From contig OZ024754.1 of assembly GCA_964016885.1 (NCBI GenBank), forward strand, positions 29,574,001-29,638,000: 64,000 bases of DNA, written 5' to 3'. Position numbers and translations under genes: made by a program. The stretch is from Eledone cirrhosa (lineage: Eukaryota). This document shows positions 533 through 59,819 of the stretch, piece after piece (the first letter of the stretch is position 1; every line of letters starts with the position of its first letter). The notes below the pieces were generated by a model. It searched no databases. It was not told where the DNA came from and saw only the letters and a program-made list of their open reading frames with translations.

Positions 533-701
533 CCAAACACGATAACCAAAATCACTGCTAAAATATGCCAGAAAGGGAATATATATATATTTATATATAT
601 ATATATTTAGCTGACTCGATATGCAAATTAGGCTGCTCAGCCGTTAATTTTCATAAGGAAAGTATATACTTTCGAACGTTCAACTATCTGGCAGATGGGT
701 A

Positions 702-746
702 AACGGTGCTGATGATAGCTAACAAGCTTGAAACTAGTACATCGTT
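702..746 (+). ncRNA. Minimal type I hammerhead ribozyme (array A, unit 1)
   Basis: AACGGUG-CUGAUGA-uAGCU(AACA)AGCUu-GAAA-CUAG-UA/CAUCGUU. Stem I has 7 bp, stem III is the palindrome ACUAGU, and cleavage is predicted after 739. Confidence 0.88.
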
Positions 747-911
747 CCTCTGTCAGTGTTGAACAAAAAGGTGACGTGGTTGCCTTAACACCGTATGGCA
801 TAAATTCAGGCTGTTCGCTTTGTTGACAAACAAACGAACAAAGCGGCCGGCGTTATAATAAACGTCGGCTAAACTGATGCGTGCATATATGTATGTGTAC
901 CTGTATGCATA

Positions 912-960
<49 letters not shown>

Positions 961-1197
961 GCGTGCTACTGTACGTCTGTATACATATATGTTTGTACGT
1001 ATACATACATACTTACATTTAAGTAAGTGCCATACTAAGAGTGAGAAATGAAATTTCGTTTTCATTTTTTTCAACTTATCGTTTTCGGTATGCCTGACCG
1101 ATTTAACTTACTCAATATACAAATTAGGCTGCTCAGCCGTTAATTTTCATAAGGAAAGTATATACTTTCGAACGTTCAACTATCTGGCAGATGGGTA

Positions 1198-1242
1198 AAC
1201 GGTGCTGATGATAGCTAACAAGCTTGAAACTAGTACATCGTT
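1198..1242 (+). ncRNA. Minimal type I hammerhead ribozyme (array A, unit 2)
   Basis: Identical to 702-746. Confidence 0.88.
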
Positions 1243-1407
1243 CCTGTGTCAGTGTTGAACAAAAAGGTGACGTGGTTGCCTTAACACCGTATGGCATAAA
1301 TTCAGGCTGTTCGCTTTGTTGACAAACAAACGAACAAAGCGGCCGGCGTTATAATAAACGTCGGCTAAACTGATGCGTGCATATATGTATGTGTACCTGT
1401 ATGCATA

Positions 1408-1479
<72 letters not shown>

Positions 1480-1713
1480 TGCTACTGTACGTCTGTATAC
1501 ATATATGTATGTACGTATACATACATACTTACATTTAAGTAAGTGCCATACTAAGAGTGAGAAATGAAATTTCGTTTTCATTTTTTTCAACTTATCGTTT
1601 TCGGTATGCCTGACCGATTTAACTCACTGAATATGCAAATTAGGCTGCTCAGCCGTTAATTTTCATAAGGAAAGTATATACTTTCGAACGTTCAACTATC
1701 TGGCAGATGGGTA

Positions 1714-1758
1714 AACGGTGCTGATGATAGCTAACAAGCTTTAAACTAGTACATCGTT
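1714..1758 (+). ncRNA. Hammerhead ribozyme copy with catalytic G12>U mutation (array A, unit 3)
   Basis: GAAA reads TAAA at 1742-1745; the rest is identical to units 1-2. Confidence 0.8.
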
Positions 1759-1923
1759 CCTGCGTCAGTGTTGAACAAAAAGGTGACGTGGTTGCCTTAA
1801 CACCGTATGGCATAAATTCAGGCTGTTCGCTTTGTTGACAAACAAACGAACAAAGCGGCCGGCGTTATAATAAACGTCGGCTAAACTGATGCGTGCATAT
1901 ATGCATGTGTACCTGTATGCATA

Positions 1924-1970
<47 letters not shown>

Positions 1971-2023
1971 GCGTGCTACTGTACGTCTGTATACATATAT
2001 GTATGTACGTATACATACATACT

Positions 2024-2072
<49 letters not shown>

Positions 2073-6087: not shown

Positions 6088-6093
6088 GTATAT

Positions 6094-7663
6094 ATAAAAG
6101 TAGCGAAACAAACGGTTATCAAACAATTTTCTAAATAAATTAAAAAATGATTAAATAATCACCTGTTCAGATGCTGTTACCGACGGTTTCATCATTCCAA
6201 AAGATTGGAAATCCAACGAATTTCCAATGGAAAGAAATGAATCTTCAGACACAAGTACATTGTACCTGTTGAAGTATCCATCCACTTCTATAATTTATTC
6301 TCCTTACGTAGAGAACAAAACGTTGAATAATGCCGCTAATTTTAGTGGCAATTCGACATGTTTATAATATCCAGCTTTTATCAGCGACCTGATTTGCGTG
6401 TGTGTCACTTTAACGGCTTGACCGCATGCGTTGGGCAGGGAGCATAATATTTACTTGCTATACCTTATAGCGTGGAAATAGGGCTGTCTGAAGATTCATT
6501 TCTTTCCATTGGAAATTCGTTGGATTTCCAATCTTTTGGAATGATGAAACCGTCGGTAACAGCATCTGAACAGGTGATTATTTAATCATTTTTTAATTTA
6601 TTTAGAAAATTGTTTGATAACCGTTTGTTTCGCTACTTTTATATTGTTCTGGTATCTCGAATTAGTGCCATTGAACCATATGTATTATAAACAACTTGAA
6701 TATTTCTACAAGTACATTGTACCTGTTGAAGTATCCATCCACTTCTATAATTTATTCTCCTTACGTAGAGAACAAAACGTTGAATAATGCCGCTAATTTT
6801 AGTGGCAATTCGACATGTTTATAATATCCAGCTTTTATCAGCGACCTGATTTGCGTGTGTGTCACTTTAACGGCTTGACCGCATGCGTTGGGCAGGGAGC
6901 ATAATATTTACTTGCTATACCTTATAGCGTGGAAATAGGGCTGTCTGAAGATTCATTTCTTTCCATTGGAAATTCGTTGGATTTCCAATCTTTTGGAATG
7001 ATGAAACCGTCGGTAACAGCATCTGAACAGGTGATTATTTAATCATTTTTTAATTTATTTAGAAAATTGTTTGATAACCGTTTGTTTCGCTACTTTTATA
7101 TTGTTCTGGTATCTCGAATTAGTGCCATTGAACCACATGTATTATAAACAACTTGAATATTTCTACAAGTACATTGTACCTGTTGAAGTATCCATCCACT
7201 TCTATAATTTATTCTCCTTACCTAGAGAACAAAACGTTGAATAATGCCGCTAATTTTAGTGGCAATTCGACATGTTTATAATATCCAGCTTTTATCAGCG
7301 ACCTGATTTGCGTGTGTGTCACTTTAACGGCTTGACCGCATGCGTTGGGCAGGGAGCATAATATTTACTTGCTATACCTTATAGCGTGGAAATAGGGCTG
7401 TCTGAAGATTCATTTCTTTCCATTGGAAATTCTTTGGATTTCCAATCTTTTGGAATGATGAAACCGTCGGTAACAGCATCTGAACAGGTGATTATTTAAT
7501 CATTTTTTAATTTATTTAGAAAATTGTTTGATAACCGTTTGTTTCGCTACTTTTATATTGTTCTGGTATCTCGAATTAGTGCCATTGAACCACATGTATT
7601 ATAAACAACTTGAATATTTCTACAAGTACATTGTACCTGTTGAAGTATCCATCCACTTCTATA
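6094..7663 (+). mobile_element. Tandem array B: 3.1 direct copies of a 457-bp HHR unit preceded by an inverted 158-bp segment
   Basis: ACAAGTACATTG recurs at 6251, 6708, 7165 and 7622. 6094-6251 is the reverse complement of the HHR region. (TA)n on both sides. Confidence 0.9.
6483..6563 (+). ncRNA. Type I hammerhead ribozyme with extended stem II (array B; also 6940-7020, 7397-7477 and inverted 6173-6251)
   Basis: GCUGU-CUGAAGA-uUCAU..UUGGAAAU(loop)AUUUCCAA..AUGAu-GAAA-CC(GUC)GG-UA/ACAGC. Confidence 0.85.
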
Positions 7664-7670
7664 ATATATG

Positions 7671-11617: not shown

Positions 11618-11725
11618 CATACATACATACATACATACATACATGCATACATACATACATACATACATACATACATACATACATACATACATACATACAT
11701 ACATACATACATACATACATACATA

Positions 11726-12631
11726 CATGGTGGCTGCCAACTCGTTTTCGAGTACGGCCACTACTTTATATCCATGTAGGAGAACCCCTACCGATGCGCT
11801 GAACGAGTGTGACTTTTTAGTCCAGTCAGCGACTTGAAAACTCTGGTACAAACACTACACTTGTGACAATTATTGACACATAGTGCTGGGCCCATGGTAC
11901 CATGTGACGACAAGTGCAGAGAGATCTCCAGATATAAAGCAATGCCTGTGCCATGAAGCTTTTATAGTGAGCAAAGGCACTGCACAAAGCCAGTCCCACT
12001 CTCTTAACCAAGATGATAATTACCAAAAAGAAGAACAAGTCAACATCATTGGATACCATCAGGGTTGCAGGTGTTATATCAGAGTTTTCCTTCTCCTAGA
12101 ATTCTGCCTTGACAAAGGTTAAGGGGTCATACATACATACATACATACATACATACATACATACATACATACATACATACATACATACATACATACGTAC
12201 ATGCATACATACATACATGGTGGCTGCCAACTCGTTTTCGAGTACGGCCACTACTTTATATCCATGTAGGAGAACCCCTACCGAAGCGCTGAACGAGTGT
12301 GACTTTTTGTCCAGCCAGCGACTTGAAACCTCTGGTACAAACACTACACTTGTGACAATTATTGACACATAGTGCTGGGCCCATGGTACCATGTGAGGAC
12401 AAGTGCAGAGAGATCTCCAGATATAAAGCAATGCCTGTGCCGTGAAGCTTTTATAGTGAGCAAAGGCACTGCACAAAGCCAGTCCCACTCTCTTAACCAA
12501 GATGATATTTACCAAAAAGAAGAACAAGTCAACATCATTGGATACCATCAGGGTTGCAGGTGTTATATCAGAGTTTTCCTTCTCCTAGAATTCTGCCTTG
12601 ACAAAGGCTAAGGGGTCATCTCTCCCGGTGA
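11726..12631 (-). mobile_element. Tandem pair of a ~410-bp element separated and flanked by (ACAT)n; probably an RTE-related non-autonomous retroposon
   Basis: Two near-identical copies with period 489. The minus-strand 5' region has CTAGGAGAAGGAAAACTCTGA, reminiscent of RTE 5' UTRs, and the 3' end runs into a (TATG)n tail. Confidence 0.55.
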
Positions 12632-13149
12632 TACATACATACATACATACATACATACATGCATATATATATATATTATGCCTTTTGAGCCACCTTGTAT
12701 GTACATGAAAGTTCAGATATCACTTGTAGGTGGCGAATTGGTAGAATCGTTGTAACGTTTGTTTTTCATCCTTTAGTGGATGTGAGGGATGGTCGATAAA
12801 TAAAATAGCAATCCAGGGGCGGCGAATTGGCGTAATTTGACTCAGGTTGAATTATTGAGATATCTGATCTTGCTACGTGAGTTCTAAGTTCAAATCCCAC
12901 CTCCTTCTGTCAGGAATTGTAACAGGTAGACAATATCATCAACGGAAATCTCAATCGGTTCTTTTCTTGATGCTCAGTTCATTTAATTGTTTTTAATATC
13001 ACATGTTGACGCTATTATACATTAACTAAATAGGGGCGCCACAGTTTCTTGGGCATTTAAAACCTGGCGGACCCCATCTCACCAGATCTGAAGACAGCAA
13101 ATTTCTTCCAGAGAAGGATAGAGAATGAGAGAAAGCAAGTGAGAAAAAG

Positions 13150-20773: not shown

Positions 20774-21098
20774 CATACATACATATATATATATATGTGT
20801 GTATTAAAAACAAATAACGAAACGAAATTAAATTTCGTTTCGTTTGTAACTCACTTTTGTATGACTGATGCTTAAACAATTAAGTCAAAAATGTACATCC
20901 ACATATGTATACTGAAATACTAGTATGCATATGAATACACACACGTATACATATGTAGATGTACCGAGTTTTTCACTGGTCACTTTACCGTGAGTGTCCA
21001 ACTATTCTGTATGTAAACACACAGACAAACCGGTTTTTAGAGTCATACTGGTTTTTGAGGAAACACCTTTCCTCTATTCCCCAGAAAGCCAGACAAGG

Positions 21099-21143
21099 AA
21101 TATTGAACTAGTTTCGTTGTTGTTACAACTCATCAGCAATATT
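21099..21143 (-). ncRNA. Hammerhead ribozyme, inverted copy of array C
   Basis: Reverse complement of 21879-21923. Confidence 0.85.
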
Positions 21144-21878
21144 TACCTATCTTCCGGCCTCTCTAGAGAATCGTAAAAGCACATATCGTTATATGCTTTT
21201 TCTATGAAAATTAGTAGTGGGCAGACTAATTTGCATAGAGCGTGAGTACGTACCGGTTCAACGGAGACGATAAAAACAAATAACGAAACGAAATTAAATT
21301 TCGTTTCGTTTGTAACTCACTTTTGTATGACTGATGCTTAAACAATTAAGTCAAAAATGTACATCCACATATGTATACTGAAATACTAGTATGCATATGA
21401 ATACACACACGTATACATATGTAGATGTACCGAGTTTTTCACTGGTCACTTTACCGTGAGTGTCCAGCTATTCTGTATGTAAACACACAGACAAACCGGT
21501 TTTTAGAGTATGACTCTAAAAACCGGTTTGTCTGTGTGTTTACATACAGAATAGCTGGACACTCACGGTAAAGTGACCAGTGAAAAACTCGGTACATCTA
21601 CATATGTATACGTGTGTGTATTCATATGCATACTAGTATTTCAGTATACATATGTGGATGTACATTTTTGACTTAATTGTTTAAGCATCAGTCATACAAA
21701 AGTGAGTTACAAACGAAACGAAATTTAATTTCGTTTCGTTATTTGTTTTTATCGTCTCCGTTGAACCGGTACGTACTCACGCTCTATGCAAATTAGTCTG
21801 CCCACTACTAATTTTCATAGAAAAAGCATATAACGATATGTGCTTTTACGATTCTCTAGAGAGGCCGGAAGATAGGTA

Positions 21879-21923
21879 AATATTGCTGATGAGTTGTAAC
21901 AACAACGAAACTAGTTCAATATT
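21879..21923 (+). ncRNA. Minimal type I hammerhead ribozyme (array C; repeated at 22345, 22811, 23277, 23743 and 24209)
   Basis: AAUAUUG-CUGAUGA-GUUG(UAACAA)CAAC-GAAA-CUAG-UU/CAAUAUU. Perfect 7-bp stem I, canonical core, palindromic AACUAGUU stem III. Confidence 0.92.
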
Positions 21924-24600
21924 CCTTGTCTGGCTTTCTGGAGAATAGAGGAAAGGTGTTTCCTCAAAAACCAGTATGACTCTAAAAACCGGTTTGTCTG
22001 TGTGTTTACATACAGAATAGCTGGACACTCACGGTAAAGTGACCAGTGAAAAACTCGGTACATCTACATATGTATACGTGTGTGTATTCATATGCATACT
22101 AGTATTTCAGTATACATATGTGGATGTACATTTTTGACTTAATTGTTTAAGCATCAGTCATACAAAAGTGAGTTACAAACGAAACGAAATTTAATTTCGT
22201 TTCGTTATTTGTTTTTATCGTCTCCGTTGAACCGGTACGTACTCACGCTCTATGCAAATTAGTATGCCCACTACTAATTTTCATAGAAAAAGCATATAAC
22301 TATATGTGCTTTTACGATTCTCTAGAGAGGCCGGAAGATAGGTAAATATTGCTGATGAGTTGTAACAACAACGAAACTAGTTCAATATTCCTTGTCTGGC
22401 TTTCTGGAGAATAGAGGAAAGGTGTTTCCTCAAAAACCAGTATGACTCTAAAAACCGATTTGTCTGTGTGTTTACATACAGAATAGCTGGACACTCACGG
22501 TAAAGTGACCAGTGAAAAACTCGGTACATCTACATATGTATACGTGTGTGTATTCATATGCATACTAGTATTTCAGTATACATATGTGGATGTACATTTT
22601 TGACTTAATTGTTTAAGCATCAGTCATACAAAAGTGAGTTACAAACGAAACGAAATTTAATTTCGTTTCGTTATTTGTTTTTATCGTCTCCGTTGAACCG
22701 GTACGTACTCACGCTCTATGTAAATTAGTCTGCCCACTACTAATTTTCATAGAAAAAGCATATAACGATATGTGCTTTTACGATTCTCTAGAGAGGCCGG
22801 AAGATAGGTAAATATTGCTGATGAGTTGTAACAACAACGAAACTAGTTCAATATTCCTTGTCTGGCTTTCTGGGGAATAGAGGAAAGGTGTTTCCTCAAA
22901 AACCAGTATGACTCTAAAAACCGGTTTGTCTGTGTGTTTACATACAGAATAGCTGGACACTCACGGTAAAGTGACCAGTGAAAAACTCGGTACATCTACA
23001 TATGTATACGTGTGTGTATTCATATGCATACTAGTATTTCAGTATACATATGTGGATGTACATTTTTGACTTAATTGTTTAAGCATCAGTCATACAAAAG
23101 TGAGTTACAAACGAAACGAAATTTAATTTCGTTTCGTTATTTGTTTTTATCGTCTCCGTTGAACCGGTACGTACTCACGCTCTATGCAAATTAGTCTGCC
23201 CACTACTAATTTTCATAGAAAAAGCATATAACGATATGTGCTTTTACGATTCTCTAGAGAGGCCGGAAGATAGGTAAATATTGCTGATGAGTTGTAACAA
23301 CAACGAAACTAGTTCAATATTCCTTGTCTGGCTTTCTGGAGAATAGAGGAAAGGTGTTTCCTCAAAAACCAGTATGACTCTAAAAACCGGTTTGTCTGTG
23401 TGTTTACATACAGAATAGCTGGACACTCACGGTAAAGTGACCAGTGAAAAACTCGGTACATCTACATATGTATACGTGTGTGTATTCATATGCATACTAG
23501 TATTTCAGTATACATATGTGGATGTACATTTTTGACTTAATTGTTTAAGCATCAGTCATACAAAAGTGAGTTACAAACGAAACGAAATTTAATTTCGTTT
23601 CGTTATTTGTGTTTATCGTCTCCGTTGAACCGGTACGTACTCACGCTCTATGCAAATTAGTCTGCCCACTACTAATTTTCATAGAAAAAGCATATAACGA
23701 TATGTGCTTTTACGATTCTCTAGAGAGGCCGGAAGATAGGTAAATATTGCTGATGAGTTGTAACAACAACGAAACTAGTTCAATATTCCTTGTCTGGCTT
23801 TCTGGGGAATAGAGGAAAGGTGTTTCCTCAAAAACCAGTATGACTCTAAAAACCGGTTTGTCTGTGTGTTTACATACAGAATAGCTGGACACTCACGGTA
23901 AAGTGACCAGTGAAAAACTCGGTACATCTACATATGTATACGTGTGTGTATTCATATGCATACTAGTATTTCAGTATACATATGTGGATGTACATTTTTG
24001 ACTTAATTGTTTAAGCATCAGTCATACAAAAGTGAGTTACAAACGAAACGAAATTTAATTTCGTTTCGTTATTTGTTTTTATCGTCTCCGTTGAACCGGT
24101 ACGTACTCACGCTCTATGCAAATTAGTCTGCCCACTACTAATTTTCATAGAAAAAGCATATAACGATATGTGCTTTTACGATTCTCTAGAGAGGCCGGAA
24201 GATAGGTAAATATTGCTGATGAGTTGTAACAACAACGAAACTAGTTCAATATTCCTTGTCTGGCTTTCTGGGGAATAGAGGAAAGGTGTTTCCTCAAAAA
24301 CCAGTATGACTCTAAAAACCGGTTTGTCTGTGTGTTTACATACAGAATAGCTGGACACTCACGGTAAAGTGACCAGTGAAAAACTCGGTACATCTACATA
24401 TGTATACGTGTGTGTATTCATATGCATACTAGTATTTCAGTATACATATGTGGATGTACATTTTTGACTTAATTGTTTATGTGTGTATTCATATATATAT
24501 ATATATACATATATACATATATACATATATATATATATACATACATATATATATATGTGTGTATACATATATGTGTATATATACATATATACACACACAC

Positions 24601-29599: not shown

Positions 29600-30590
29600 A
29601 AGCTCTACAAAACAAGGAGCCGAAATTCAAACACTCTGCCTTATATTAGAGCGACGAGAATGCTGGTGGAAAGGGAACTGATTCACAGTACGCCGGCAAG
29701 TATCGACAAAGGAGTCGAGGGTGCTGAACTGTCCAGAGATCGGCGTCCAATGTGATTGCCGGCGACTGAGACGAGTGAAGTCATCCGTCTGTGTCGATGA
29801 TGGCGTGTCGTGGAAAAAAGCTTTCAGCTTTAATCGACGGAAGAACCCTTCAATCTCGGCACGTGTGCGGAACACGTGGCAGGTAGATGTGGTTGGTATA
29901 AATCTCAAAACACGGACGAGGAGGAAGCGCTCAGCTTCAGAGAGTGGTAGGTCGTGGGGTATGATGACTACGTGAGGGAGTGAAAGAGGCGGAGGAGGAG
30001 GGGCTAAGGTGGTTGGGCAAAGCGTGTGCAGATTCAGTGGTGGGGAGAGGAAAGGGAGTTGTAGGTGACGGGATAGAGGGGTTAGGGTTGGAGGTGATAT
30101 GAGTATGGGCGGTGACGGCAGGCGGGGAGCGGAGAGAGTCGAGTTTATGTTTTTTATGGAAGTGAGGAAATTGAAAAGGAGGCGATTGAGGTAAAGGATG
30201 AATTGGATAAGGGATTGGGCGAGGAGAGGGTGGCAAGTGGAGGAGAGATGGAAGTAGGCCTTGGGGAGATCTCGGTCGAGAGAACGGGTTTGGGCGAGAG
30301 TTGATCGAATGGTCGCCCGCATGAGCTGGAAAAAGGAGCGGGTAAGGATGGGCTGAGTGGTGGGAGCAGAGTAAGAGGTGGGTGGAACTTGGGGCGGAAA
30401 CCGCGGGGAATGAGGTAGTGGTGGAGACAGCGACTTAAAATTGTGATATGACTGTTGTATCGTGTTTTGGTGAAGATGAGGTTGGAGAGATGCAGGGAGG
30501 ATTGGATGCATATAGGAGGGTGGGGGGTGGAAGCGATTAAGAATAGAAACGAGCTGGCGGAGAAAAGATTTGAGATTGGACATATTGAAG
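29600..30590 (-). pseudogene. Penelope-like (Neptune-type) polyprotein N-terminal region, frameshifted and truncated before the RT
   Basis: TRYNSHITILSRCLHHYLIPRGFRPKF and PLSEAERFLL..LRFIPT..EIEGFFRRLKLKAFFHD..SHWTP..LDSFVD..SNI are typical PLE pre-RT motifs. Confidence 0.8.
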
Positions 30591-30723
30591 GTACTAGACA
30601 AAACGCCAGCACCAACAGTTTTGCAAGAGATGTCAACATGAATGGACCTGTTATTTTTATCTAAAGACATTTTTTCCAATTTCATCCCACCTGTTCCCTC
30701 AATCTATCTTATTTCTCATTCTT

Positions 30724-30759
30724 TCTTCTGATGAAGGATTAGCGTCCGAAACGTGAAGA
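30724..30759 (+). ncRNA. Minimal PLE-type hammerhead (cleavage triplet mutated to GUG), inverted relative to the adjacent PLE ORF
   Basis: UCUU-CUGAUGA-aGGA(UUAGCG)UCC-GAAACGUg-AAGA. The sister copy at 48113-48148 has GAAACGUU. Confidence 0.7.
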
Positions 30760-30838
30760 CCCTCTTCCTGCTATATCAAGCGTTAACCTAATATATACCT
30801 TCCATATACTGTACCGATTGTATTGTTATTTCTGTTTC

Positions 30839-33887: not shown

Positions 33888-33949
<62 letters not shown>

Positions 33950-33980
33950 AGTGTAATTTTCTACACAAAACGAAGGTTAT

Positions 33981-36726
<2,746 letters not shown>

Positions 36727-37244: not shown

Positions 37245-40200
37245 AACAACACCAAACACAAACCTACCACCACCAACACCACCACCACAAGACCAACACC
37301 AAACACAACCCTACCACCAACAACACCACCACCACCACCACCACCACCACAAGACCAACACCAAACACAGACCTACTATCAACACCACAACCACCACCAC
37401 CAACTACACCAACGCTAACACCAAACACAGCCCTACCACCAACAACACCACCACCACCACCACCAACACCAACGCTAACACCAAACACAGTCCTACCACC
37501 AACACCACCACCACCACCACCACCACCAACACCAACGCTAACACCAAACACAGCCCTACCACCAACACCACCACCACCACCACCACCAACACCAACGCTA
37601 ACACCAAACACAGCCCTACGACCAACACCACCACCACCACCACCAACACCAACACCAACGCTAACACCAAACACAGCCCTACCACCAACAACACCACCAC
37701 CACCACCACCAACACCAACGCTAACACCAAACACAGCCCTAACACCAACAACACCACCCCACCACCACCAACACCAACGCTAACACCAAACACAGCCCTA
37801 CCACCAACAACACCACCCCACCACCACCAACACCAACGCTAACACCAAACACAGCCCTACCACCAACAACACCACCACCACCACCACCAACACCAACGCT
37901 AACACCAAACACAGCCCTACCACCAACACCACCACCACCACCACTAACAACACCAACGCTAACACCAAACACAGCCCTACCACCAACAACACCACCACCA
38001 CCACCACCAACACCAACGCTAACACCAAACACAGCCCTACCACCAACACCACCACCACCACCACCACCACCAACACCAACGCTAATACCAAACACAGCCC
38101 TACCACCAACACCACCACCACCACCACCACCAACACCAACGCTAACACCAAACACAGCCCTACCACCACCAACAACACCACCACCACCACCACCAACACC
38201 AACGCTAACACCAAACACAGCCCTACCACCAACAACACCACCACCACCACCACCACCAACACCAACGCTAACACCAAACACAGCCCTACCACCAACAACA
38301 CCACCACCACCACCAACACCAACGCTAACACCAAACACAGCCCTACCACCAACAACACCACCACCACCACCACCAACACCAACGCTAACATCAAACACAG
38401 CCCTACCACCAACAACACCACCACCACCACCAACACCAACGCTAACACCAAACACAGCCCTACCACCAACAACACCACCACCACCACCAACACCAACGCT
38501 AACACCAAACACAGCCCTACCACCAACAACACCACCACCACCACCAACACCAATGCTAACACCAAACACAGCCCTACCACCAAAAACACCACCACCACCA
38601 CCAACACCAACGCTAACACCAAACACAGCCCTACCACCAACAACACCACCACCACCACCACCAACACCAACGCTAACACCAAACACAGCCCTACCACCAA
38701 CAACACCACCACTACCACCACCACTACCACCACCAACACCAAACACAGCCCTACCACCAACAACACCACCACCACCACCAACACCAACGCTAACACCAAA
38801 CACAGCCCTACCACCAACAACACCACCACCACCACCAACACCAACGCTAACACCAAACACAGCCCTACCACCAACAACACCACCACCACCACCACCAACA
38901 CCAACGCTAACACCAAACACAGCCCTACCACCAACAACACCACCCCACCACCGCCAACACCAACGCTAACACCAAACACAGCCCTACCACCAACAACACC
39001 ACCCCACTACCACCAACACCAACGCTAACACCAAACACAGCCCTACCACCAACAACACCACCACCACCACCACCAACACCAACGCTAACACCAAACACAG
39101 CCCTACCACCAACAACACCACGACCACCACCAACACCAACGCTAACACCAAACACAGCCCTACCACCAACAACACCACCCCACCACCACCAACACCAACG
39201 CTAACACCAAACACAGCCCTACCACCAACACCACCACCACCACCACCACCAACACCAACGCTAACACCAAACACAGCCCTACCACCAACAACACCACCAC
39301 CACCACCACCAACACCAACGCTAACACCAAACACAGCTCTACCACCAACAACACCACCACCACCACCACCAACACTAACGCTAACACCAAACACAGCCCT
39401 ACCACCAACAACACCACCACCACCACCACCAACACCAACGCTAACACCAAACACAGCCCTACCACCAACAACACCACCACCACCACCACCAACACCAACA
39501 CTAACACCAAACACAGCCCTACCACCAACAACACCACCACCACCACCACTAACACCAACGCTAACACCAAACACAGCCCTACCACCAACAACACCACCAC
39601 CACCACCAACACCAACGCTAACACCAAACACAGCCCTACCACCAACAACACCACCACCACCACCACCAACACCAACGCTAACACCAAACACAGCCCTACC
39701 ACCAACAACACCACCACCACCACCACCAACACCAACGCTAACACCAACACCAACGCTAACACCAAACACAGCCCTACCACCAACACCACCACCACCACCA
39801 ACACCAACGCTAACACCAAACACAGCCCTACCACCAACAACACCACCACCACCACCACTAACACCAACGCTAACACCAAACACAGCCCTACCACCAACAA
39901 CACCACCCCACCACCACCAACACCAACGCTAACACCAAACACAGCCCTACCACCAACAACACCACCACCACCACCACCACCACCACCAACACCAACGCTA
40001 ATACCAAACACAGCCCTACCACCAACAACACCACCAACACCAACGCTAATACCAAACACAGCCCTACCACCAACAACACCACCACCACCACCACCACCAC
40101 CAACGCTAACACCAAACACAGCCCTACCACCAACAACACCACCACCACCACCACCACCAACACCAACGCTAACACCAAACACAGCCCTACCACCAACAAC

Positions 40201-43200
40201 ACCACCACCACCAACACCAACGCTAACACCAAACACAGCCTTACCACCACCACCACTACCAACACCAACGCTAATACCAAACACAGCCCTACCACCAACA
40301 ACACCACCACCACCACCACCACCACCAACACCAACGCTAACACCAAACACAGCCCTACCACCAACAACACCACCCCACCACCACCAACACCAACGCTAAC
40401 GCCAAACACAGTCCTACCACCAACAACACCACCACCACCACCACCAACACCAACACCAACGCTAACACCAAACACAGCCCTACCACCAACAACACCACCC
40501 CACCACCACCAACACCAACGCTAACACCAAACACAGCCCTACCACCAACAACACCACCACCACCACCACCACACCAACACCAACGCTAACACCAAACACA
40601 GCCCTACCACCAACAACACCACCCCACCACCACCAACACCAACGCTAACGCCAAACACAGCCCTACCACCAACAACACCACCACCACCACCACCAACACC
40701 AACACCAACGCTAACACCAAACACAGCCCTACCACCAACAACACCACCCCACCACCACCAACACCAACGCTAACGCCAAACACAGCCCTACCACCAACAA
40801 CAACACCACCACCACCTCCAACACCAACACCAACGCTAACACCAAACACATCCCTACCACCAACAACACCACCCCACCACCACCAACACCAACGCTAACG
40901 CCAAACACAGCCCTACCACCAACAACACCACCACCACCACCACCAACACCAACACCAACGCTAACACCAAACACAGCCCTACCACCACCACCACCACCAC
41001 CACCACCAACACCAACGCTAACACCAAACACAGCCCTACTATCAACACCACCACCACCACCACCACCAACACCAACGCTAACACCAAACACAGCCCTACT
41101 ATCAACACCACCACCACCACCACCACCACCAACACCAACGCTAACACCAAACACAGCCCTACCACCAACAACACCACCCCACCACCACCAACACCAACGC
41201 TAACGCCAAACACAGCCCTACCACCAACAACACCACCACCACCACCAACACCAACGCTAACACCAAACACAGCCCTAACACCAACAACACCACCACCACC
41301 ACCACCAACACCAACGCTAACACCAAACACAGCCCTAACACCAACAACACCACCACCACCACCACCAACACCAACGCTAACACCAAACACAGCCCTAACA
41401 CCAACAACACCACCACCACCACCACCACCACCAACACCAACGCTAACACCAAACACAGCCCTACCACCAACAACACCACCACCACCACCACCAACACCAA
41501 CGCTAACACCAAACACAGCCCTACCACCAACAACACCACCACCACCACCACCACCACCAACACCAACGCTAACACCAAACACAGCCCTACCACCAACAAC
41601 ACCACCCCACCACCACCAACACCAACGCTAACACCAAACACAGCCCTACTATCAACACCACCACCACCACCACCACCACCACCAACACCAACGCTAACAC
41701 CAAACACAGCCCTACCACCAACAACACCACCCCACCACCACCAACACCAACGCTAACACCAAACACAGCCCTACCACCAACAACACCACCACCACCACCA
41801 CCACCACCACCAACGCTAATACCAAACACAGCCCTACTATCAACACCACCACCACCACCACCCACACCAACGCTAACACCAAACACAGCCCTACCACCAC
41901 CACCACCACCACCACCACCACCAACGCTAATACCAAACACAGCCCTACTATCAACACCACCACCACCACCACCACCACCACCAACGCTAACACCAAACAC
42001 AGCCCTACTATCAACACCACCACCACCACCACCACCACCACCACCACCACCACCACCACCACCAACGCTAACACCAAACACAGCCCTACTATCAACACCA
42101 CCACCACCACCACCAACACCAACGCTAACACCAAACACAGCCCTACTATCAACACCACCACCACCACCACCACCAACACCGACGCTAACACCAAACACAG
42201 CCCTACTATCAACACCACCACCACCACCCACACCAACGCTAACACCAAACACAGCCCTACTATCAACAACACCACCACCACCAACACCGACGCTAACACC
42301 AAACACAGCCCTACTATCAACACCACCACCACCACCACCACCACCAACACCAACGCTAACACCAAACACAGCCCTACTATCAACACCACCACCACCACCA
42401 CCACCAACACCAACGCTAACACCAAACACAGCCCTACTATCAACAACACCACCACCACCACCACCAACACCAACGCTAACACCAAACACAGCCCTACCAC
42501 CACCACCACCACCACCACCACCACCACCAACACCAACGCTAACACCAAACACAGCCCTACCACCAACACCACCACCACCACCACTACCAACAGTAACGCT
42601 AACACCAAACACAGCCCTACCACCACCACCACCACCACCACCACCACCACCACCAACACCAACGCTAACACCAAACACAGCCCTACTATCAACAACACCA
42701 CCACCACCACCACCAACACCAACACCAACGCTAATACCAAACACAGCCCTACCACCAACAACACCACCACCACCACCACCACCAACACCAACGCTAACAC
42801 CAAACACAGCTCTACCACCAACAACACCACCACCACCACCAACACCAACGCTAACACCAAACACAGCCCTACTATCAACACCACCACCAACGGCAACACC
42901 AAACACAGCCCTTCCACCAACAACACCACCACCACCACCACCACCAACGCTAACACCAAACATAGCCCTACCACCAACAACACCACCACCAACAACAACA
43001 ACACCAACGCTAACACCAAACACAGCACTACTATCAACACCACCACCAACACAAGTAGCACTACCAACGCTAACACCAAACACAGCCCTACCACCAACAA
43101 CACCACCACCACCACCACCACCACCAACACCAACGCTAACACTAAACACAGCCCTACCACCAACAACACCACCACCACCAACAACACCAATGCTAACACT

Positions 43201-44008
43201 AAACACAGCCCTACCACCAACAACACCACCACCACCACCACCACCACCAACACCAACGCTAACACTAAACACAGCCCTACCACCAACAACCCCACCACCA
43301 CCAACAACACCAATGCTAACACTAAACACAGCCCTACCACTAACAACACCACCACCACCAACAACACCAATGCTAACACTAAACACAGCCCTACCACCAA
43401 CAACACCACCACCACCACTAATAACACCAACGCTAACACTAAACACAGCCCTACCACCAACAACACCACCACCACCACCACCAACAACACCACCACCACC
43501 ACCACTAATAACACCAACGCTAACACTAAACACAGCCCTACCACCAACAACACCACCACCACCACCAACAACAACACCAATGCTAACACTAAACACAGCC
43601 CTACCACCAACAACACCACCACCACCAACAACACCAATGCTAACACTAAACACAGCCCTACCACCAACAACACCACCACCACCACCACTAATAACACCAA
43701 CGCTAACACTAAACGCAGCCCTACCACCAACAACACCACCACCACCACCACCAACAACACCACCACCACCACCACCAACAACACCACCACCACCACCAAC
43801 AACAACACCAACGCTAACACTAAACACACCCCTACCACCAACAACACCACCACCACCAACAACAACAACACCAACGCTAACACCAAACACAGCCCTACTA
43901 TCAACACCACCACCACCAACAACAACAACACCACCACCACCAACAACAACACCACCACCACCAACAACAACAACACCAACGCTAACACTAAACACAGCCC
44001 TACCACTA
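37245..44008. repeat. 6.7-kb C/A-rich minisatellite, ~57-66-bp unit ACACCAACGCTAACACCAAACACAGCCCT(ACC/AAC)n
   Basis: More than 100 tandem units with a variable (CCA)n tract and extreme strand asymmetry. Confidence 0.97.
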
Positions 44009-45777: not shown

Positions 45778-45782
<5 letters not shown>

Positions 45783-45906
45783 AGTAAGTAAGACCCCGAC
45801 GGCTGAGCTCAAGCCGTTTCGTCGGCTAATTCTGTACTGAATTCGAGTACAGAATTAGCCGTCGAAACGGCTTGAGCTCAGCCGTCAGGGTCTTACTTAC
45901 TCCTAT
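45778..45906. repeat. Fold-back palindrome built on the 3' half of a hammerhead
   Basis: ~60-bp arms. The right arm reads stem II 3' strand-GAAACGGCU(UGAGCUC)AGCCGUC/AGGG. Confidence 0.8.
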
Positions 45907-46492
45907 TACCCACTCTACTACCCTAAGTATTGAGTACTTTGGTGCGTTATGGTCCACCTGGTTCCTTACCACTTTTCCCTCGCTATATATATATATATAT
46001 ATCCAAAACTAAGATAAATTAAATGAATTTAATCTAAATCGAAATTGCGGGTGTCATGTCATAATGGCATCCGCCATATCACCTGGAAATATGCTCAAAG
46101 ATAAATCCGAGCATTTTATAATAAAGCTATTTCTGTTGAAGAGAATTTGACTGCTATTTCTAGTTGTCGAATACCTATTCACGCCACTGAAACGAAACTG
46201 CTATCATGTGTAGACGCAACACGTGGTAGCGGCCAGATGAGGATTTAAACTCGTTGTGTAAGGATGGATAGCTGGACATTATTATTCTTCCTTGTTGACA
46301 ATCCAATAATATCCACTTTCCGTGACTTACCATCTGATTAATTGGTGAAATATATTTCTTTAATGGGATATATACAAGGAAAGTTAATCATACTTAAAGG
46401 TATAAATTTAACTAGCTATGCGTGGTTACACGCGTGTAAAAATTATCTCCTGTGATTATTCATGTATAGTTATATGTTAATCAATTTCTAGT

Positions 46493-46589: not shown

Positions 46590-46916
46590 ATAAATATAAG
46601 TATGTATACGTACATACATATATGTATACAGACGTACAGTGGTATGTATATACATACATACATGCACACATATATATATATGTACGTATGGGTTTACCGA
46701 CCATTTATTATAATGTTCGGTTATTATAACGTTCAATCGATTGACAGGAAGGAATACGGTGCTGGTGACAGCTTATTAGCTAGAACCTAGTTCATCGTTC
46801 CTTTGTCAGTGTTGAACAAAAGGGCAACGACGGTTGCCGAAGACTGTACGGCTTAATTCGAGCTGTTTGTTTACAAACAAACGGAACATTATAATACATG
46901 TTCGGTAAAGCCATAC

Positions 46917-46981
<65 letters not shown>

Positions 46982-47059
46982 TGTATGTATATACATACTA
47001 CTGTACGTCTGTATACATATATGTATGTACGTATACATACTTACATTTAAGTATCAGCC

Positions 47060-47065
<6 letters not shown>
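46590..47065 (+). mobile_element. Old single copy of the array A family with an inverted partial duplicate and decayed HHR
   Basis: ACGGTG-CTGgTGA-cAGCT(TATT)AGCTa-GAAcCTAGTT-CATCGTTCCT..GTCAGTGTTGAACAAAA matches array A. 46590-46730 is inverted relative to 46885-47050. Confidence 0.75.
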
Positions 47066-52829: not shown

Positions 52830-53040
52830 GGCGATCTACGTAGTAAATTGATTTATCGTGAGCTCCGCAAAGGTTTGTTATTTTCAGTTGTTTAAAATTG
52901 CCATTTATGGAAAATTTTTATTAACTGTATATAAGTGCACATCCATTGTTTTCTGAAAAGGGCACTCAAAAAGATTGCGGCCTTGACCCCAAAATTTAAA
53001 CTTTTATAATTATCATACAAAAATTTTTCTTTGAAAAATC

Positions 53041-54960
53041 ATGGCCGACTCAGACTCACTCCTTCCTCACAAACTAACACCTCACACCGACACCACCATT
53101 GTAAATATTACTACGTTTGCCAACACTAAAAATATAAGCAGTAGCAATATTTTAAATTTGTCTCAGGCAGACATTCATTTCCCGCCATTACCAATGACTG
53201 CAGGTGTTAAAGCCGCCACCCCCACATCCACCACCACCACCCCCATTTACACAGCGACAACAGAATCAAAAGAAAAAAATAAATTAACTCGTGATATCGA
53301 AATAAATTCAACCAAAATGAACTTTTCCACACCGAACACCACTGACGCCACCATCACCACAACTGAAACTAAAATTAACAATATCAAAAATAACGATAAC
53401 AACAACAGAAACAATGAAATTAAGAAAACCACCCTGAGTTTTGCCAGAGTAGCAAAACAGTGCGAAGCATTTCAGGTAACTCAGGAGGAATTAGAAGAAG
53501 CCAAAAAAAATGGTAAAGAAAGATGGGTACAGGGTCAGCCTCACCCCCCCCCCCCCCACACACCTAATAAAATGGACCATCGGACGATACACATAAAATC
53601 GCGCCGAGTGGAACGGGCATCTGAGTCCCAAATCCAAAAAGTTTTGGGACATGTGTGGGCAAAAAAACCCCACATCAGACGTGGGCAGAAATATGGAACC
53701 GTGGACGTGTTCTTTGAAACACCAGAGGAGGCTAGAGAACACTCCATGGCCCCATTAAGAAGTGACGACTTCACACTCGTCCTAAGCTATTGTGGCCAGA
53801 GACTCGTGAAGATCAGGGTGACCCACGTTCCACCGGCCATCGAAATTCCCTGGCTAATAGCTGCCGTCCTCGCTGGCACCGAAGCCAACACCAAGATAAT
53901 CGAAAGAGCGAAAGAAAAGCAGGAGGACTGGTCCGGATCTGGGATGGAGCTCCTGATCCAAGCGGACGAAAAAAGCATTGAGGAGATCCCAGAGGTAATA
54001 GACCTCACTGACGGCAGCCATCTCACTGTATTCATCGAGGGCTGACGGCCTAGGTGTGTCGTTTGTTGTGAAGGAACCCACCTAAGGGCTTTCTGCCCTC
54101 AGGATAAAAGGTTAAGACCACTTCTCTTACCCACCCCAGTGACTCAACCATCAACACCACCAACAGCAGAGATGGCAGCAACAACTGTACCAGCAACAAC
54201 AGAAGCAACTGTAACAGCAACAACTGCAGCAACAGTACCAAAACCAACACCACCACCACCCAACGCGCCAGAACTAGCACCAGTGCCTACACCATCCACC
54301 ACGCCACAACCAAAACCAACGCCTGTGGAGGATTTTCCACTCCCCGGCCTATCACAACTGGAGACAGATTGTGACGACGAGGAATCAGGAAAAAAGAAAA
54401 AAAGAAACCAAAAAAGAAAATATTCTCTTCCCTCCCCCTCCAAAAACAAAATACAGAGGGAAACAAATAAACTATCAAACAAAAAAGTTAGGACAGATAT
54501 GCCACCATTCACACCAGCATCACCAACCCCATCACCACAAACACCAACACCATCACCATCATTAACCCCAACACCACCATCACCAACACCACAAAAGTCA
54601 CCAAAAAGCGAAACAGAAACAAACCCACAACAAACGCAAACAAAACAAAACAACCAAAACGATACACAGTACACAGCATTAAATTTGAACAACAACCAAT
54701 TATTACACTACATCCAACACAACACCAGCATCACAGAAAAAGACTACACAACAACCCAAAAGTTAACACCACCTCCACACATACAAATCACTCGCATCAC
54801 ACAGAAAACGTACACAACACTAAAACAAAAATTCCCCAAAGACATCGGAGATTTCCGACAAGCACTCTCCAGGAGGATTTATAAGGACATCCTTCCTGAG
54901 GAGGCCACAAGCAGTGAAAAGAATGGAGAAACCATCATTCCTCTACGAGAAGTAAGGTAA
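53041..54960 (+). pseudogene. Tx1 ORF1 (RRM-like region plus CCHC zinc knuckle), one in-frame stop at 54043
   Basis: SFARVA motif and EG*RPRCVVCCEGTHLRAFCP. The same frame continues to 54960. Confidence 0.85.
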
Positions 54961-54994
54961 GTGGTCTTTCCCAACTTTTCCACTCCATTTCAAC

Positions 54995-57505
54995 ATGACC
55001 TCACTCAGAATAGGCAGCATAAATGCGCGTGGCTTGGGGTCGTCATGGAAGCAGGGCCACCTGCTCAACTAGCTCAGGTCAATAAACATAGATGTGGTGG
55101 CCATCAGCGAGACCAGAATCTCCGAAGCACGAGCCTTCGCACCGATCTTCGGCGGTTACGATGTGTACGCATCTCCCAGCCGTCCGGGATCGGGGGGAGA
55201 AGTTGCTGTGCTTTTTCGGAGAGGTTTGGATCTCGCCATACGGGCCATCTTCCTGGACCCAGAAGGTAAATGGGTGGTGCTGGACGTGACCAGCGGAGAC
55301 GGGCAAGCTTTCAGGATAGTGGCCGTCTATGCCCCGACAGGAGCAGGGCGGCCTGATTTCTTCCGGCGTCTGGAGACCTTTCTTGGAACGTCCCGCTCTT
55401 TAGTGTTAGTGGGCGACTGGAACGGGATCTTTGATGCACGCTGGGACTGTGTGGGGTTAGCGGATAGGGAAGGAGGGTGCAAGAGCCTCACCAACCTGCT
55501 CAGGCGTTTTGAACTGTCTGACAGGTACCGATTGGATTTCCCGAATGTGCCAATGTGGACTTGGACAAATCGCGTAGGGTCATCCAGATCATATCTAGAT
55601 AGAGTATTTTGTAGGGAAATAGATAGGTCTAGCATAGGCTGTCCACAATTCTAGATAGACAGCTACACGGACCACAAGTTCGTGATCTGTGTGATTGAAT
55701 TAGATAGGCTTCATAGACACGGACCCGGCTACTGGAAGCTAAACGCGTCCTTACCAGCGCGCAAGGCCTACAGAGACCGGATTAGCGAACTAGTTAAGCG
55801 GGCGTTGACGGGGGCCATCGTCAACAACAAGTGGTGGTTTGCTCTGAAAAGAGCGATTAGAATAGTGTCCATTAAATTTAGTAAGGCTTTAGCAATAGAG
55901 AAAAATAGAGCAGAGGGAGAATGAGTTAGAAAATTAGACGAGGCGCTTAGCAAAGGCATCGCGACCGACGTACTTGCGGCGAAATTGGGCCTTGACCAAT
56001 TCTTCAATGCAAAGCACGAAGGCTGCGTTGTCAGAGCTAGGGTGCGGGCTCTCAGACACGAGGGGACGAAAGTCGTTCAATGGGCCCGAGTGGCGGAGGC
56101 GCGTCGTGGCAACAAATCCATGATCCGGTCTTTGGTGACCACGACGGGCGCATGCTACTCGATCCCGGGCAAATGTGTGAAGCTTTTCAGCCACACTTCG
56201 CCCAGCTGTTCGGGGGCAGCGGCGGGCCGAATCGAGGGATGGACTTTAGTGTCTACCTCGACGGACTGCCGCGGCTCTCGGCCAGTGAGATGGAGTGTTG
56301 CGAAAAGCCGATAACAGCCGGTGAAGTACGGGAGGCAAGGACTGGCTGCACAAGGGGTAAATCGCTTGGTTTGGATGGTCTGCCCTATGAACATTACGTA
56401 CAGATGCCAGACTTGTTCGGAGGCCTCTTGGCGGACGTCTACTGCAACTGGCAACAGAACGGGAGCATTCCCAGCTCTGTGAGCCGAAGAGCTGAGGCGC
56501 TGCTGAGAAAGGATCCGAACAAGGGTGATAACATATATCATTTCAGGCCCATAACTCTGCTAAACACAGAGTTCAAGATTTTGGCCAAGGTGCTAGCAAA
56601 GAGGTTGGCGCTTGTCGTTGGTGGTCTGGTGGGAGAGGCGCAGACATGCGCCATTCCCGACAGATACATCCACGACAATCTCCACCTCATGCGATACAAC
56701 GTAGAGATGGTTTGCTAGGGAACCTGGCACGGGTGGGTCCTTGATCAATCTAGATCAGTCGAAAGCTTTCGATAGGGTCGACCATCGTTACCTAGAGGCA
56801 GTCCTGAAAGCGGCTGGCTTTGGGCCCGTCTTCAGAGGTTGGATCACTGCCATGCACAGTGACATCTGCTCTGTGGTGAGAGTGAACGGTCATCTTTCGG
56901 AACCGTTCAACATTATGCGCTCGGTCCGCCAAGGATGTCCCCTCTCGTCCCTCTTGTACGTATTGACTCTCGAGCCATTACTGCAGAAACTGGAGACGTT
57001 GATGGGCGTCCCGCGCGAACTAGGATGCGGAAGATCCGTGTCAGCATATGCGGACGATGTCACCGTAGTAGTGTCGAACGCCAAACACATCGAGGCGATC
57101 GGCACTACACTAAGAGAATACGAAGCGGTGACAGGAGCAATGATCAACCAGGAAAAGTCAGTGGGCCTGCAAATCGGCACCTGGGGAGGCAGGTCCATGC
57201 CGTCCAACAGCGTCGTCGGGCGCTGGACGGAAGGACCGGTTAAATTGCTAGGGGTCTGGTTCGGTCCGGATCTCCAGACGGACAAAAACTGGGACGAGGT
57301 GACGAGCAGGGTGGCTTCTCTCACACAGAAATGGGCGGAGAGGAAGCTATCCATGAAAGGTCGAGCGGAGGAGGCTAACGCGTACATCGTGTCCGTCATC
57401 TACTACCGCCTGACCGTCGTATCTTGTCCTAAGCCCCGCCTGACTGCACTGGAGCGTTTGCTCTTTCGATTTTTGTGGAAGGGACGCGCTCCGATAGTCA
57501 GGCGT
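54995..57505 (+). pseudogene. Tx1 ORF2 (APE endonuclease plus RT), disrupted
   Basis: SINARGL, ISETR, VYAP, GDWN, YLDR, TDHK, FRPITLLNTEFKILAK, DQSKAFDRVDH, VRQGCPLS and YADD, with stops and frameshifts. Confidence 0.93.
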
Positions 57506-57570
57506 CCTGTATTGTCCTGTACTGTCCTTAATGTCTACTTTGTGTAAATCCTTGTGTTTAATAAAGAAAG

Positions 57571-57607
<37 letters not shown>

Positions 57608-57812
57608 GGTCGAAGCGGACGTATTTTGCTCGCTCACAGTAAGTCGCTTTATATGCCTGTTTAAATTATTTGTTGTTAAATATTTCTTGTTGTGTAAGGG
57701 ATATAACCCCTTAGACTTTGCCCCGTGAAGGGGAAAGTATAATATTTGGGCCTTTTGGCCCAAATATTTGAACTTTTTTTACATGTTAAAAAATTTACGA
57801 AGAAAAAAAGAC

Positions 57813-59788: not shown

Positions 59789-59819
59789 ACCTTTCTCTCT
59801 CTCTGTTTAACCTGCCAAC

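What the first reader, a model, noticed from the sequence alone, without database searches (positions are those of the whole stretch)
20805..24478. Array C: very young 466-bp retrozyme-like concatemer with seven intact hammerheads
Seen: 6.4 almost identical direct units, each with a perfect HHR, no credible ORF, plus an inverted 1.5-unit head, inserted in TA/CA microsatellite. Predicted self-cleavage after 21916+466n would release 466-nt monomers. Inference: the array is a product of rolling-circle reverse transcription of a 466-nt circular RNA by a PLE RT. The unit is at or above the upper size I recall for animal non-LTR retrozymes.
Basis: partly seen in the sequence, partly recalled or inferred. 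Interest (0 to 1): 0.85.

Follow-up and report, generated by a model that had tools for sequence, protein, structure and literature searches.

The report
Twin-armed hammerhead retrozyme riding Penelope machinery
This 3.7-kb repeat is one of at least 2,000 scattered insertions of a 466-base non-coding unit carrying a predicted self-cutting RNA; most are two back-to-back arms ending at two fixed points, which likely records a Penelope-type jumping-gene enzyme copying one small RNA circle from both DNA strands at once.

Summary
Observation confirmed: 6.38 direct and 1.51 inverted 466-bp units, seven identical type I hammerheads (GUU triplet, palindromic helix III), no ORF over 60 codons. It is one insertion of a dispersed family (9,246 exact copies of a 26-mer; 2,082 end-to-(TA)n junctions). 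The 'inverted head' is a second arm. In 99 two-arm insertions the inner junction falls anywhere, but the outer 3' ends are fixed and paired: one at unit position ~302, the other at 222-235 (87 such pairs, 0 with two 302 ends, 1 with two ~230 ends). A 12-bp target duplication flanks this copy. This is the Penelope-like (PLE) inverted-copy-plus-'tail' signature with a 69-74-nt tail. Both arms share array-specific variants, arms reach 30 units and none stops at the ribozyme cut, favouring rolling-circle copying of one monomer. An intact Hydra-type PLE has the same layout (80-nt tail) and is joined to hammerhead repeats in four loci; a Neptune-type PLE is a rival partner. Cleavage, circles and expression are untested. 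Verdict: a non-LTR retrozyme (known kind, ordinary size) with unusually direct genomic evidence for how PLE proteins move it.

The parts
20794..20805 (+). left copy of 12-bp target-site duplication TATGTGTGTATT (last base shared with the element end)
20805..21509 (-). arm A: 1.51 units, 5' end at unit position 63, outer 3' end at position 301-302 (carries the tail)
20805..20872 (-). terminal tail (unit positions 234-301) with a 13-bp hairpin; present at the outer end of arm A only
21099..21143 (-). type I hammerhead of arm A (core starts 21136; predicted cut between 21106 and 21105)
21507..21509 (.). head-to-head junction of the two arms, 3-bp overlap
21507..24479 (+). arm B: 6.38 units, 5' end at unit position 57, outer 3' end at position 233 (no tail)
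21879..21923 (+). type I hammerhead 1 of arm B (predicted cut after 21916)
22345..22389 (+). hammerhead 2 (predicted cut after 22382)
22811..22855 (+). hammerhead 3 (predicted cut after 22848)
23277..23321 (+). hammerhead 4 (predicted cut after 23314)
23743..23787 (+). hammerhead 5 (predicted cut after 23780)
24209..24253 (+). hammerhead 6 (predicted cut after 24246)
21917..22382 (+). one cut-to-cut monomer, 466 nt, about 35% GC (unit numbering in this report starts at the predicted cut)
24478..24489 (+). right copy of the 12-bp target-site duplication (first two bases shared with the element end)

Best explanation
This is one insertion of a dispersed, non-coding, hammerhead-bearing repeat family (a non-LTR retrozyme), made of two head-to-head arms whose outer ends lie at two fixed sites 69-74 nt apart inside a 12-bp target duplication, and likely written into (TA)n DNA by a Penelope-like RT-endonuclease that primes from both nicked strands and rolls round one self-cut, circularised 466-nt RNA. 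Steps: (1, inferred) read-through transcription of an array; (2, predicted) hammerhead cleavage, probably as dimers because helix III is a 2-bp palindrome, giving 466-nt monomers; (3, inferred by analogy with Cervera 2020) ligation to a circle; (4, inferred from the duplication) a PLE protein nicks both strands about 12 nt apart; (5, shown as end positions, inferred as mechanism) one DNA end primes at site A (~302) and the other at site B (228-233); (6, inferred) each cDNA runs round the circle for 0.1 to 30 turns; (7, shown as structure) the two products are joined head to head, often over 1-3 shared bases. The likeliest protein donor is a young intact Hydra-type PLE (about 60%); a Neptune-type family is the rival (about 25%).
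For: Dispersal: 204 matches from 40 of 327 candidates scored; 9,246 exact 26-mer copies, control 0; 2,082 A-end/(TA)n junctions, control 0. End pairing: 87 A+B, 0 A+A, 1 B+B, 7 with another end, 4 unresolved among 99 two-arm junctions; among the 45 of these not selected on an A end, 38 A+B, 1 B+B, 3 other, 3 unresolved (my count from the list). Run X1 contigs show loose ends followed by TA at the same positions 228, 233 and 302. Target duplication: 10 of 31 informative insertions show a shared non-TA-containing repeat, mostly 11-13 bp, versus mean 3.6 and maximum 9 in 1,000 shuffles. Template not a run-off linear monomer: 56 of 76 A arms and 40 of 50 B arms are longer than the distance to the cut and 0 of 198 inner ends lie at positions 1-3. 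Monomer bottleneck: 34 variants fixed in one insertion and absent from the other 135, 20 of them in both arms (18, 16 and 13 copies in L104, L053, L296); only 5 pairs among 98 arrays with internal variation share two internal variants. RNA-level selection: compensatory pairs 444/455 (hammerhead helix II, about 50 arrays) and 36/45 (12 arrays). PLE precedent: inverted 5'-truncated copy and tail (PMC8557442), two internal RT start sites, nicking of both strands, predicted dimer (PMC11167929). Partner: 3,542-bp tandem PLE with a 717-aa ORF, TERT as top fold match, Hydra motifs, 44 of 48 resolved two-arm junctions A+B with an 80-nt tail; joined without intervening TA to this family (L066), to its sister family (L051, L057) and to a third hammerhead repeat (L038).
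Against: No RNA was observed: cleavage, circle and expression are untested. GUU is, from recall, a weaker triplet than GUC, and 8 of 9 Xenopus retrozyme dimers did not cleave in vitro; in the anole PLE uncleaved RNA was the dominant substrate and hammerhead mutants still inserted. In this very array position 26 is A in 3 and G in 4 copies, which one unchanged circle cannot give; it lies in a hotspot (positions 24-27) whose cause is unknown. The 30-unit arm L101-102 shows a variant pattern repeated four units apart, i.e. some DNA-level duplication or a multimeric template. 'Private' variants are private only among 136 of more than 2,000 insertions. The unit has no significant sequence similarity to the Hydra-type PLE (best E 0.33). 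L066 can also be explained by a deletion joining two neighbours; L256 joins the family to a Neptune-type PLE in the same way, and many other Hydra-like families exist. Among segregating sites 19 break predicted pairs against 17 kept and 4 compensated.
Confidence: 0.7

Rival explanations
1. Same PLE two-site priming, but the template is an uncleaved linear multimer transcribed from a homogeneous young array (or linear monomers linked by template jumps); the hammerhead plays no part in copying.
For: Uncleaved RNA was the dominant substrate for the anole PLE in vitro; very homogeneous donor arrays of 12-18 units exist; the A/G mosaic at position 26 here and the four-unit pattern in L101-102 fit a multimeric template; the Hydra-type PLE makes perfect 3.5-kb multimers although no canonical hammerhead was found in it.
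Against: New variants fixed across all units of both arms need a monomer bottleneck; arrays rarely share internal variants; the hammerhead core is kept with a compensatory change across subfamilies about 10% apart; cut-site junctions are clean in the commonest hammerhead sequences, with no sign of added bases from jumps.
Confidence: 0.2
2. A monomer or short pLTR-like piece is inserted by a PLE and then grows into an array by unequal crossover or slippage at the DNA level, as discussed in 10.64898/2026.07.22.740005.
For: The preprint cites this model for satellite birth; four-unit repeated pattern in the longest array.
Against: Arms start at arbitrary phases yet repeat the full 466-bp period; both arms are multimeric and share variants; arrays of up to 18 units have no internal difference while their haplotypes differ between loci.
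Confidence: 0.07
3. Local tandem duplication or satellite with a chance hammerhead-like motif.
For: Rfam found no match at gathering threshold.
Against: More than 2,000 dispersed insertions with fixed ends and target duplications; complete core, three helices and covariation.
Confidence: 0.01

Closest known systems
Metazoan non-LTR retrozymes (Cervera and de la Pena 2020, PMC7229834; Li, Clavereau and Pollet 2026, 10.64898/2026.07.22.740005)
   Same: Tandem non-coding units of a few hundred bp, GC below 50%, a type I hammerhead per unit, strong self-pairing, target duplication longer than 4 bp, PLE mobilisation proposed.
   Different: Neither main text describes inverted arms, fixed paired ends or a tail for retrozymes (keyword counts). 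Here the PLE link comes from insertion anatomy and joins, not from pLTR homology; cleavage and circles are untested here.
Penelope-like elements with inverted 5'-truncated copy and 30-40-bp tail (Craig et al. 2021, PMC8557442; Frangieh et al. 2024, PMC11167929)
   Same: Inverted copy, tail at one end only, two internal start sites, AT-rich or (TA)n targets, type I hammerhead with palindromic helix III.
   Different: No ORF; tail 69-74 nt; A and B ends almost strictly paired on opposite arms, whereas Frangieh et al. saw no start-site difference between strands in vitro; arms are multimers of a short unit.
Hydra-clade PLEs (Craig et al. 2021; its supplement lists Hydra-1_Obim, 2,507 bp, (TA)n)
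   Same: The candidate partner has RWR, DKT, CxCX5C, CxxC and CxH motifs, no CCHH motif, a C-terminal nuclease region and (TA)n targets.
   Different: Unit 3,542 bp rather than under 3 kb; no canonical hammerhead found by pattern search; identity with the published family not tested.
Non-autonomous Chlamys elements such as MRC1 (PMC8557442)
   Same: Non-autonomous PLE passengers forming multicopy head-to-tail insertions.
   Different: They resemble their autonomous partner at the 3' end; this unit does not resemble the Hydra-type candidate, and it carries a hammerhead.

Membership tests
non-LTR retrozyme | type I hammerhead in every tandem unit | tested here: met
   7 of 7 cores with helices I-III; helix II covaries; Rfam gathering search blank
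non-LTR retrozyme | unit of a few hundred bp, GC below 50%, no protein | tested here: met
   466 bp, 165 of 466 G+C, longest frame 60 codons
non-LTR retrozyme | multiple dispersed tandem copies | tested here: met
non-LTR retrozyme | target duplication longer than 4 bp when present | tested here: met
   12 bp here; 10 of 31 informative loci versus 3.6 in shuffles
non-LTR retrozyme | highly self-paired monomer | tested here: met
   z -11.1
non-LTR retrozyme | no LTR, primer-binding site or polypurine tract | not tested
   no LTR-type layout is seen, but no PBS or PPT search was run
non-LTR retrozyme | self-cleavage of the transcript | not testable with these tools
   needs an in vitro assay
non-LTR retrozyme | monomeric linear and circular RNA in vivo | not testable with these tools
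   no RNA holder listed; only contigs of runs of unknown kind were available
PLE-mobilised (non-autonomous) element | inverted 5'-truncated copy adjacent to the 5' end | tested here: met
   99 junctions; in 79 A-anchored loci 50 have a mapped B arm and about 10 more a very short one
PLE-mobilised (non-autonomous) element | tail at one end, from two internal RT start sites | tested here: met
   ends at ~302 and 228-233; 69-74 nt rather than the published 30-40
PLE-mobilised (non-autonomous) element | sequence homology to the pLTR of an autonomous PLE | tested here: inconclusive
   none to the Hydra-type candidate nor in 19 further loci of the Neptune-type rival, which cover only part of it; most PLE families of the genome were not compared
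Hydra clade (candidate partner) | RWK-like, DKT, CxCX5C, CxxC and CxH motifs, no CCHH, (TA)n target | tested here: met
   read from the ORF against the description; RWR in place of RWK
Hydra clade (candidate partner) | PLE-type RT fold | tested here: met
   model pLDDT 92.1, top matches TERT; profile match to a Neptune-type ORF, probability 93.8; Pfam gave no family for it
Hydra clade (candidate partner) | canonical hammerhead; length under 3 kb | tested here: not met
   no core found by two pattern scans; unit 3,542 bp. It is therefore called Hydra-type, not filed as a member
Hydra clade (candidate partner) | phylogenetic placement with reference Hydra RTs | not tested
   no reference sequences were used

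The most novel reading that the evidence does not exclude
Penelope-like proteins integrate by twin-primed rolling-circle reverse transcription: a dimer holds one circular RNA, nicks both strands 12 nt apart and starts one cDNA at each of two fixed sites, which by itself generates the long-unexplained tandem, inverted and tailed structure of PLE insertions. One Hydra-type PLE does this for several sequence-unrelated hammerhead circles and, judging by its perfect 3,542-bp multimers, for a circle of its own RNA.
Probability: 0.4. Interest if true: 0.78.

Novelty: new variant of a known kind. Interest (0 to 1): 0.58.

Why it matters
That animal retrozymes move by PLE proteins through RNA circles has been a hypothesis resting on shared ribozymes, co-occurrence and pLTR homology, and the origin of the tandem/inverted/tail structure of PLE insertions is described as unresolved. 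This family gives countable genomic signatures (paired fixed ends, 12-bp duplication, one haplotype across both arms, joins to an intact young PLE) and a small, defined pair for a direct test: a 466-nt RNA and a 717-aa protein. The element class itself is known and the unit size is ordinary.

Tried and rejected
Rfam gathering search: 0 matches. Expression: no RNA holder listed; contigs of four runs of unknown kind were laid on 21520-22900: X1 gave 1,080 records, X4 3, X5 11, X6 1; X4 covers more than one unit with one haplotype at depth about 190, but its kind is unknown, so nothing is concluded about RNA; the unique flanks were not covered by any read test, so presence/absence across individuals stays open. 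A-to-I editing signature: A>G 9 versus T>C 4 among private fixed variants (P 0.17) and 44 versus 48 among single-copy variants, not supported. Excess of inner ends just after the ribozyme cut: seen (9 of 128 at 1-15) but partly a query-boundary artefact; after correction 11 of 198 against 6.4 expected, P 0.057, and 0 at 1-3; the peak at 249-279 is caused by the hairpin. The Neptune-type PLE whose fragment lies at window 35385-35969 is young and intact, but its two ends in the window appear about 42 nt apart and no join to the unit was seen. L107 first looked like a clean join to a PLE nuclease but is a mosaic with another LINE-like piece; L293 has only a 6-7-nt match to the Hydra-type B end; neither is counted. 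The first duplication script mis-called B ends and was replaced; the '18 A+A' class counted internal unit borders and was replaced. PDB sequence search with the Hydra-type ORF: 0. The genome-wide count of intact hammerheads was not obtained. Earlier-findings look-ups by place, by the longer word list and by sequence returned nothing.

Full report
Observation. The window holds a direct array at 21507-24479 (period 466, 6.4 copies, 99% matches) and an inverted 705-bp segment at 21509->20805. Seven identical hammerhead cores lie at 21886+466n (six, plus strand) and 21136 (minus strand). Rfam gave 0 matches at gathering threshold. Frames inside the array are at most 60 codons. The monomer folds at -164.7 kcal/mol, z -11.1. 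Across the family helix II shows a compensatory U-A to A-U change in about 50 arrays, a second compensated pair occurs at 36/45 in 12 arrays, and older subfamilies have GUC; of the other segregating changes at paired sites 17 keep the pair and 19 break it.

A dispersed family. The window lies in a 3.0-Gb genome (G000). The unit gave 204 matches from the 40 best of 327 candidates; a 26-mer from it occurs 9,246 times (control 0) and the junction of one end with (TA)n 2,082 times (control 0). I read 36 loci chosen by similarity, 15 chosen by position on the largest contig and 80 chosen by having that end (one duplicate dropped). The repeat landscape looks octopus-like to me from recall; I did not test this.

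Anatomy. Most insertions are two arms joined head to head with both 3' ends pointing outward into (TA)n. Numbering the unit from the predicted cut, the inner 5' ends are spread over the unit, but the outer ends are fixed: site A at ~302 and site B at 228 or 233. Of 99 two-arm junctions 87 are A+B, 0 A+A, 1 B+B, 7 have another end and 4 run off the fetched stretch. Fifty-four of these come from the set selected on an A end, which cannot show B+B; among the other 45 the count is 38 A+B, 1 B+B, 3 other, 3 unresolved (my count from the list). Some insertions have only one arm or a second arm of under 25 nt. Contigs of run X1 (kind unknown, possibly related to the assembly source) end in TA at the same positions. 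This copy is flanked by a 12-bp duplication, TATGTGTGTATT at 20794-20805 and 24478-24489; 10 of 31 insertions with informative flanks show such a repeat, against mean 3.6 and maximum 9 in 1,000 shuffles. So the two arms come from one event at a staggered double nick (inference).

What this matches. Craig et al. (PMC8557442; keyword passages, section 11 and supplement rows seen) describe PLE insertions with an inverted 5'-truncated copy and a 30-40-bp tail at one end. Frangieh et al. (PMC11167929; main text and methods read; supplements not read) show that an anole PLE protein nicks and extends both strands, starts at two internal RNA sites whose interval is the tail, is predicted to be a dimer, shows no start-site difference between strands in vitro, and does not need hammerhead cleavage. 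The present family has this signature with a 69-74-nt tail and, additionally, near-strict pairing of the two sites on opposite arms, which suggests two coordinated active sites on one RNA (inference).

Template. Priming sites are internal, and 56 of 76 A arms and 40 of 50 B arms are longer than the distance back to the cut; arms reach 30.7 units; 0 of 198 inner ends fall at positions 1-3. A run-off linear monomer is therefore not the usual template. For circle versus uncleaved multimer: 34 variants are fixed in one insertion and absent from the other 135 examined, 20 of them in both arms, in up to 18 copies; 8 of 33 arrays with over 2 kb aligned have no internal variation; only 5 pairs among 98 internally variable arrays share two variants. 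This points to a monomer bottleneck. Against: the sample is 136 of more than 2,000 insertions; this array is A/G mosaic at position 26, inside a hotspot at 24-27 (position 25 discordant in 19 of 102 arrays) of unknown cause; and the longest arm repeats a variant pattern four units apart. An editing signature was not supported.

Partner. Locus L066 led to an element whose terminal 25-mer occurs 23,393 times. It is the end of a 3,542-bp PLE found as near-identical head-to-tail multimers with an intact 717-aa ORF; 13 of 30 sampled end copies equal the sample majority. Its motifs fit the Hydra description, its model (pLDDT 92.1) matches TERT first, 2,031 relatives score E<=1e-20 among 8,000 candidates, Pfam names nothing for it, and no canonical hammerhead was found. 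It has the same layout: 44 of 48 resolved two-arm junctions are A+B with an 80-nt tail. Joins without intervening TA: L066 (its A arm, 33 nt of the 466 unit, then a 466 arm ending at B), L051 and L057 (its arm head to head with the sister family seen at window 605-2031, 65% similar to the unit), L038 (with a third hammerhead repeat). Against exclusivity: L256 joins a 466 A arm through 39 nt of unit to a Neptune-type PLE arm ending in TA, a family that is also recent and has long open frames; L066 and L256 could each be a deletion between neighbours; many other Hydra-like families are present; and the unit has no significant similarity to the Hydra-type element. PLE machinery is very likely; the family is not settled.

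Comparison with the literature. Cervera and de la Pena (PMC7229834; parts 2-4 of 6 read; supplement not read, its model figure may bear on this) define animal non-LTR retrozymes, show circles, and name PLEs as strong candidates for mobilisation. Li et al. (10.64898/2026.07.22.740005; parts 1-3 of 5 read; supplements closed) link them to PLE pLTRs by homology, give sizes of 51-972 bp and found cleavage in 1 of 9 dimers. PMC6765202 (keyword passages) notes the palindromic helix III of PLE hammerheads. Neither retrozyme main text uses 'tail' or describes inverted arms, and five full-text searches returned no title or abstract on paired ends or twin-primed rolling-circle copying; the library lacks most subscription papers, including the older Penelope literature, so prior description is not excluded.

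Verdict. A real, young member of a large non-LTR retrozyme family; known kind, ordinary size; valuable because its anatomy gives countable evidence for PLE-driven, two-strand, probably rolling-circle integration and supplies a small testable RNA-protein pair. Ribozyme activity, circles and expression remain untested. Interest 0.58.

Noticed in passing
window 605-2031 (and a decayed copy at 46793-47065): Sister hammerhead repeat, unit about 496-516 bp with an internal TA hairpin, GUA triplet, 65% similar to the 466 unit over positions 143-382; joined to the Hydra-type PLE in L051 and L057.
   Followed up: partly
window 6092-7669: 457-bp array with the same two-arm layout in (TA)n; its two outer ends lie about 110 nt apart; it has a CUGAAGA...GAAA core with a long helix II and an offset helix I, so an atypical hammerhead at best.
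   Followed up: partly
window 11638-12673: 489-bp, 2.1-copy repeat bounded by (CATA)n; no hammerhead core found in it by the scan.
   Followed up: no
window 33939-36626: Two-arm insertion of a young Neptune-type PLE (nuclease frame 35385-35969, minus strand); full copies elsewhere have a 777-codon RT-nuclease frame and an overlapping upstream 427-codon frame (L097-L100).
   Followed up: partly
window 45778-45986: Short two-arm copy of the Hydra-type PLE end (65-nt B arm, 141-nt A arm); such copies are very abundant and usually stop near unit position 3400.
   Followed up: partly
L197-L199 (G000:C1 about 91,489,200-91,492,700): Inside a Hydra-type PLE insertion a 55-bp piece of the ORF is repeated about 65 times next to the arm junction, suggesting repeated RT slippage or copying of a tiny circle.
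   Followed up: no
unit positions 24-27 (window 21940-21943 and +466n): Within-array substitution hotspot of mixed types (G25 discordant in 19 of 102 arrays, P about 1e-15), absent from the arrays with no variation; cause unknown, assembly error not excluded.
   Followed up: partly
window 29627-30760: N-terminal part of another PLE-like frame on the minus strand beside a minimal hammerhead core at 30728.
   Followed up: no
window 37247-43988: 6.7-kb array of about 60-bp C/A-rich units with long open frames (Pro/Thr or Thr/Asn repeats); satellite or mucin-like exon, not examined.
   Followed up: no
window 53035-63205: Two partial copies of a LINE with upstream ORF, endonuclease and RT frames.
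   Followed up: no
L319 junction: A 68-nt GC-rich foreign segment lies between the two arms of an otherwise A+B insertion; source not found among fetched loci.
   Followed up: partly
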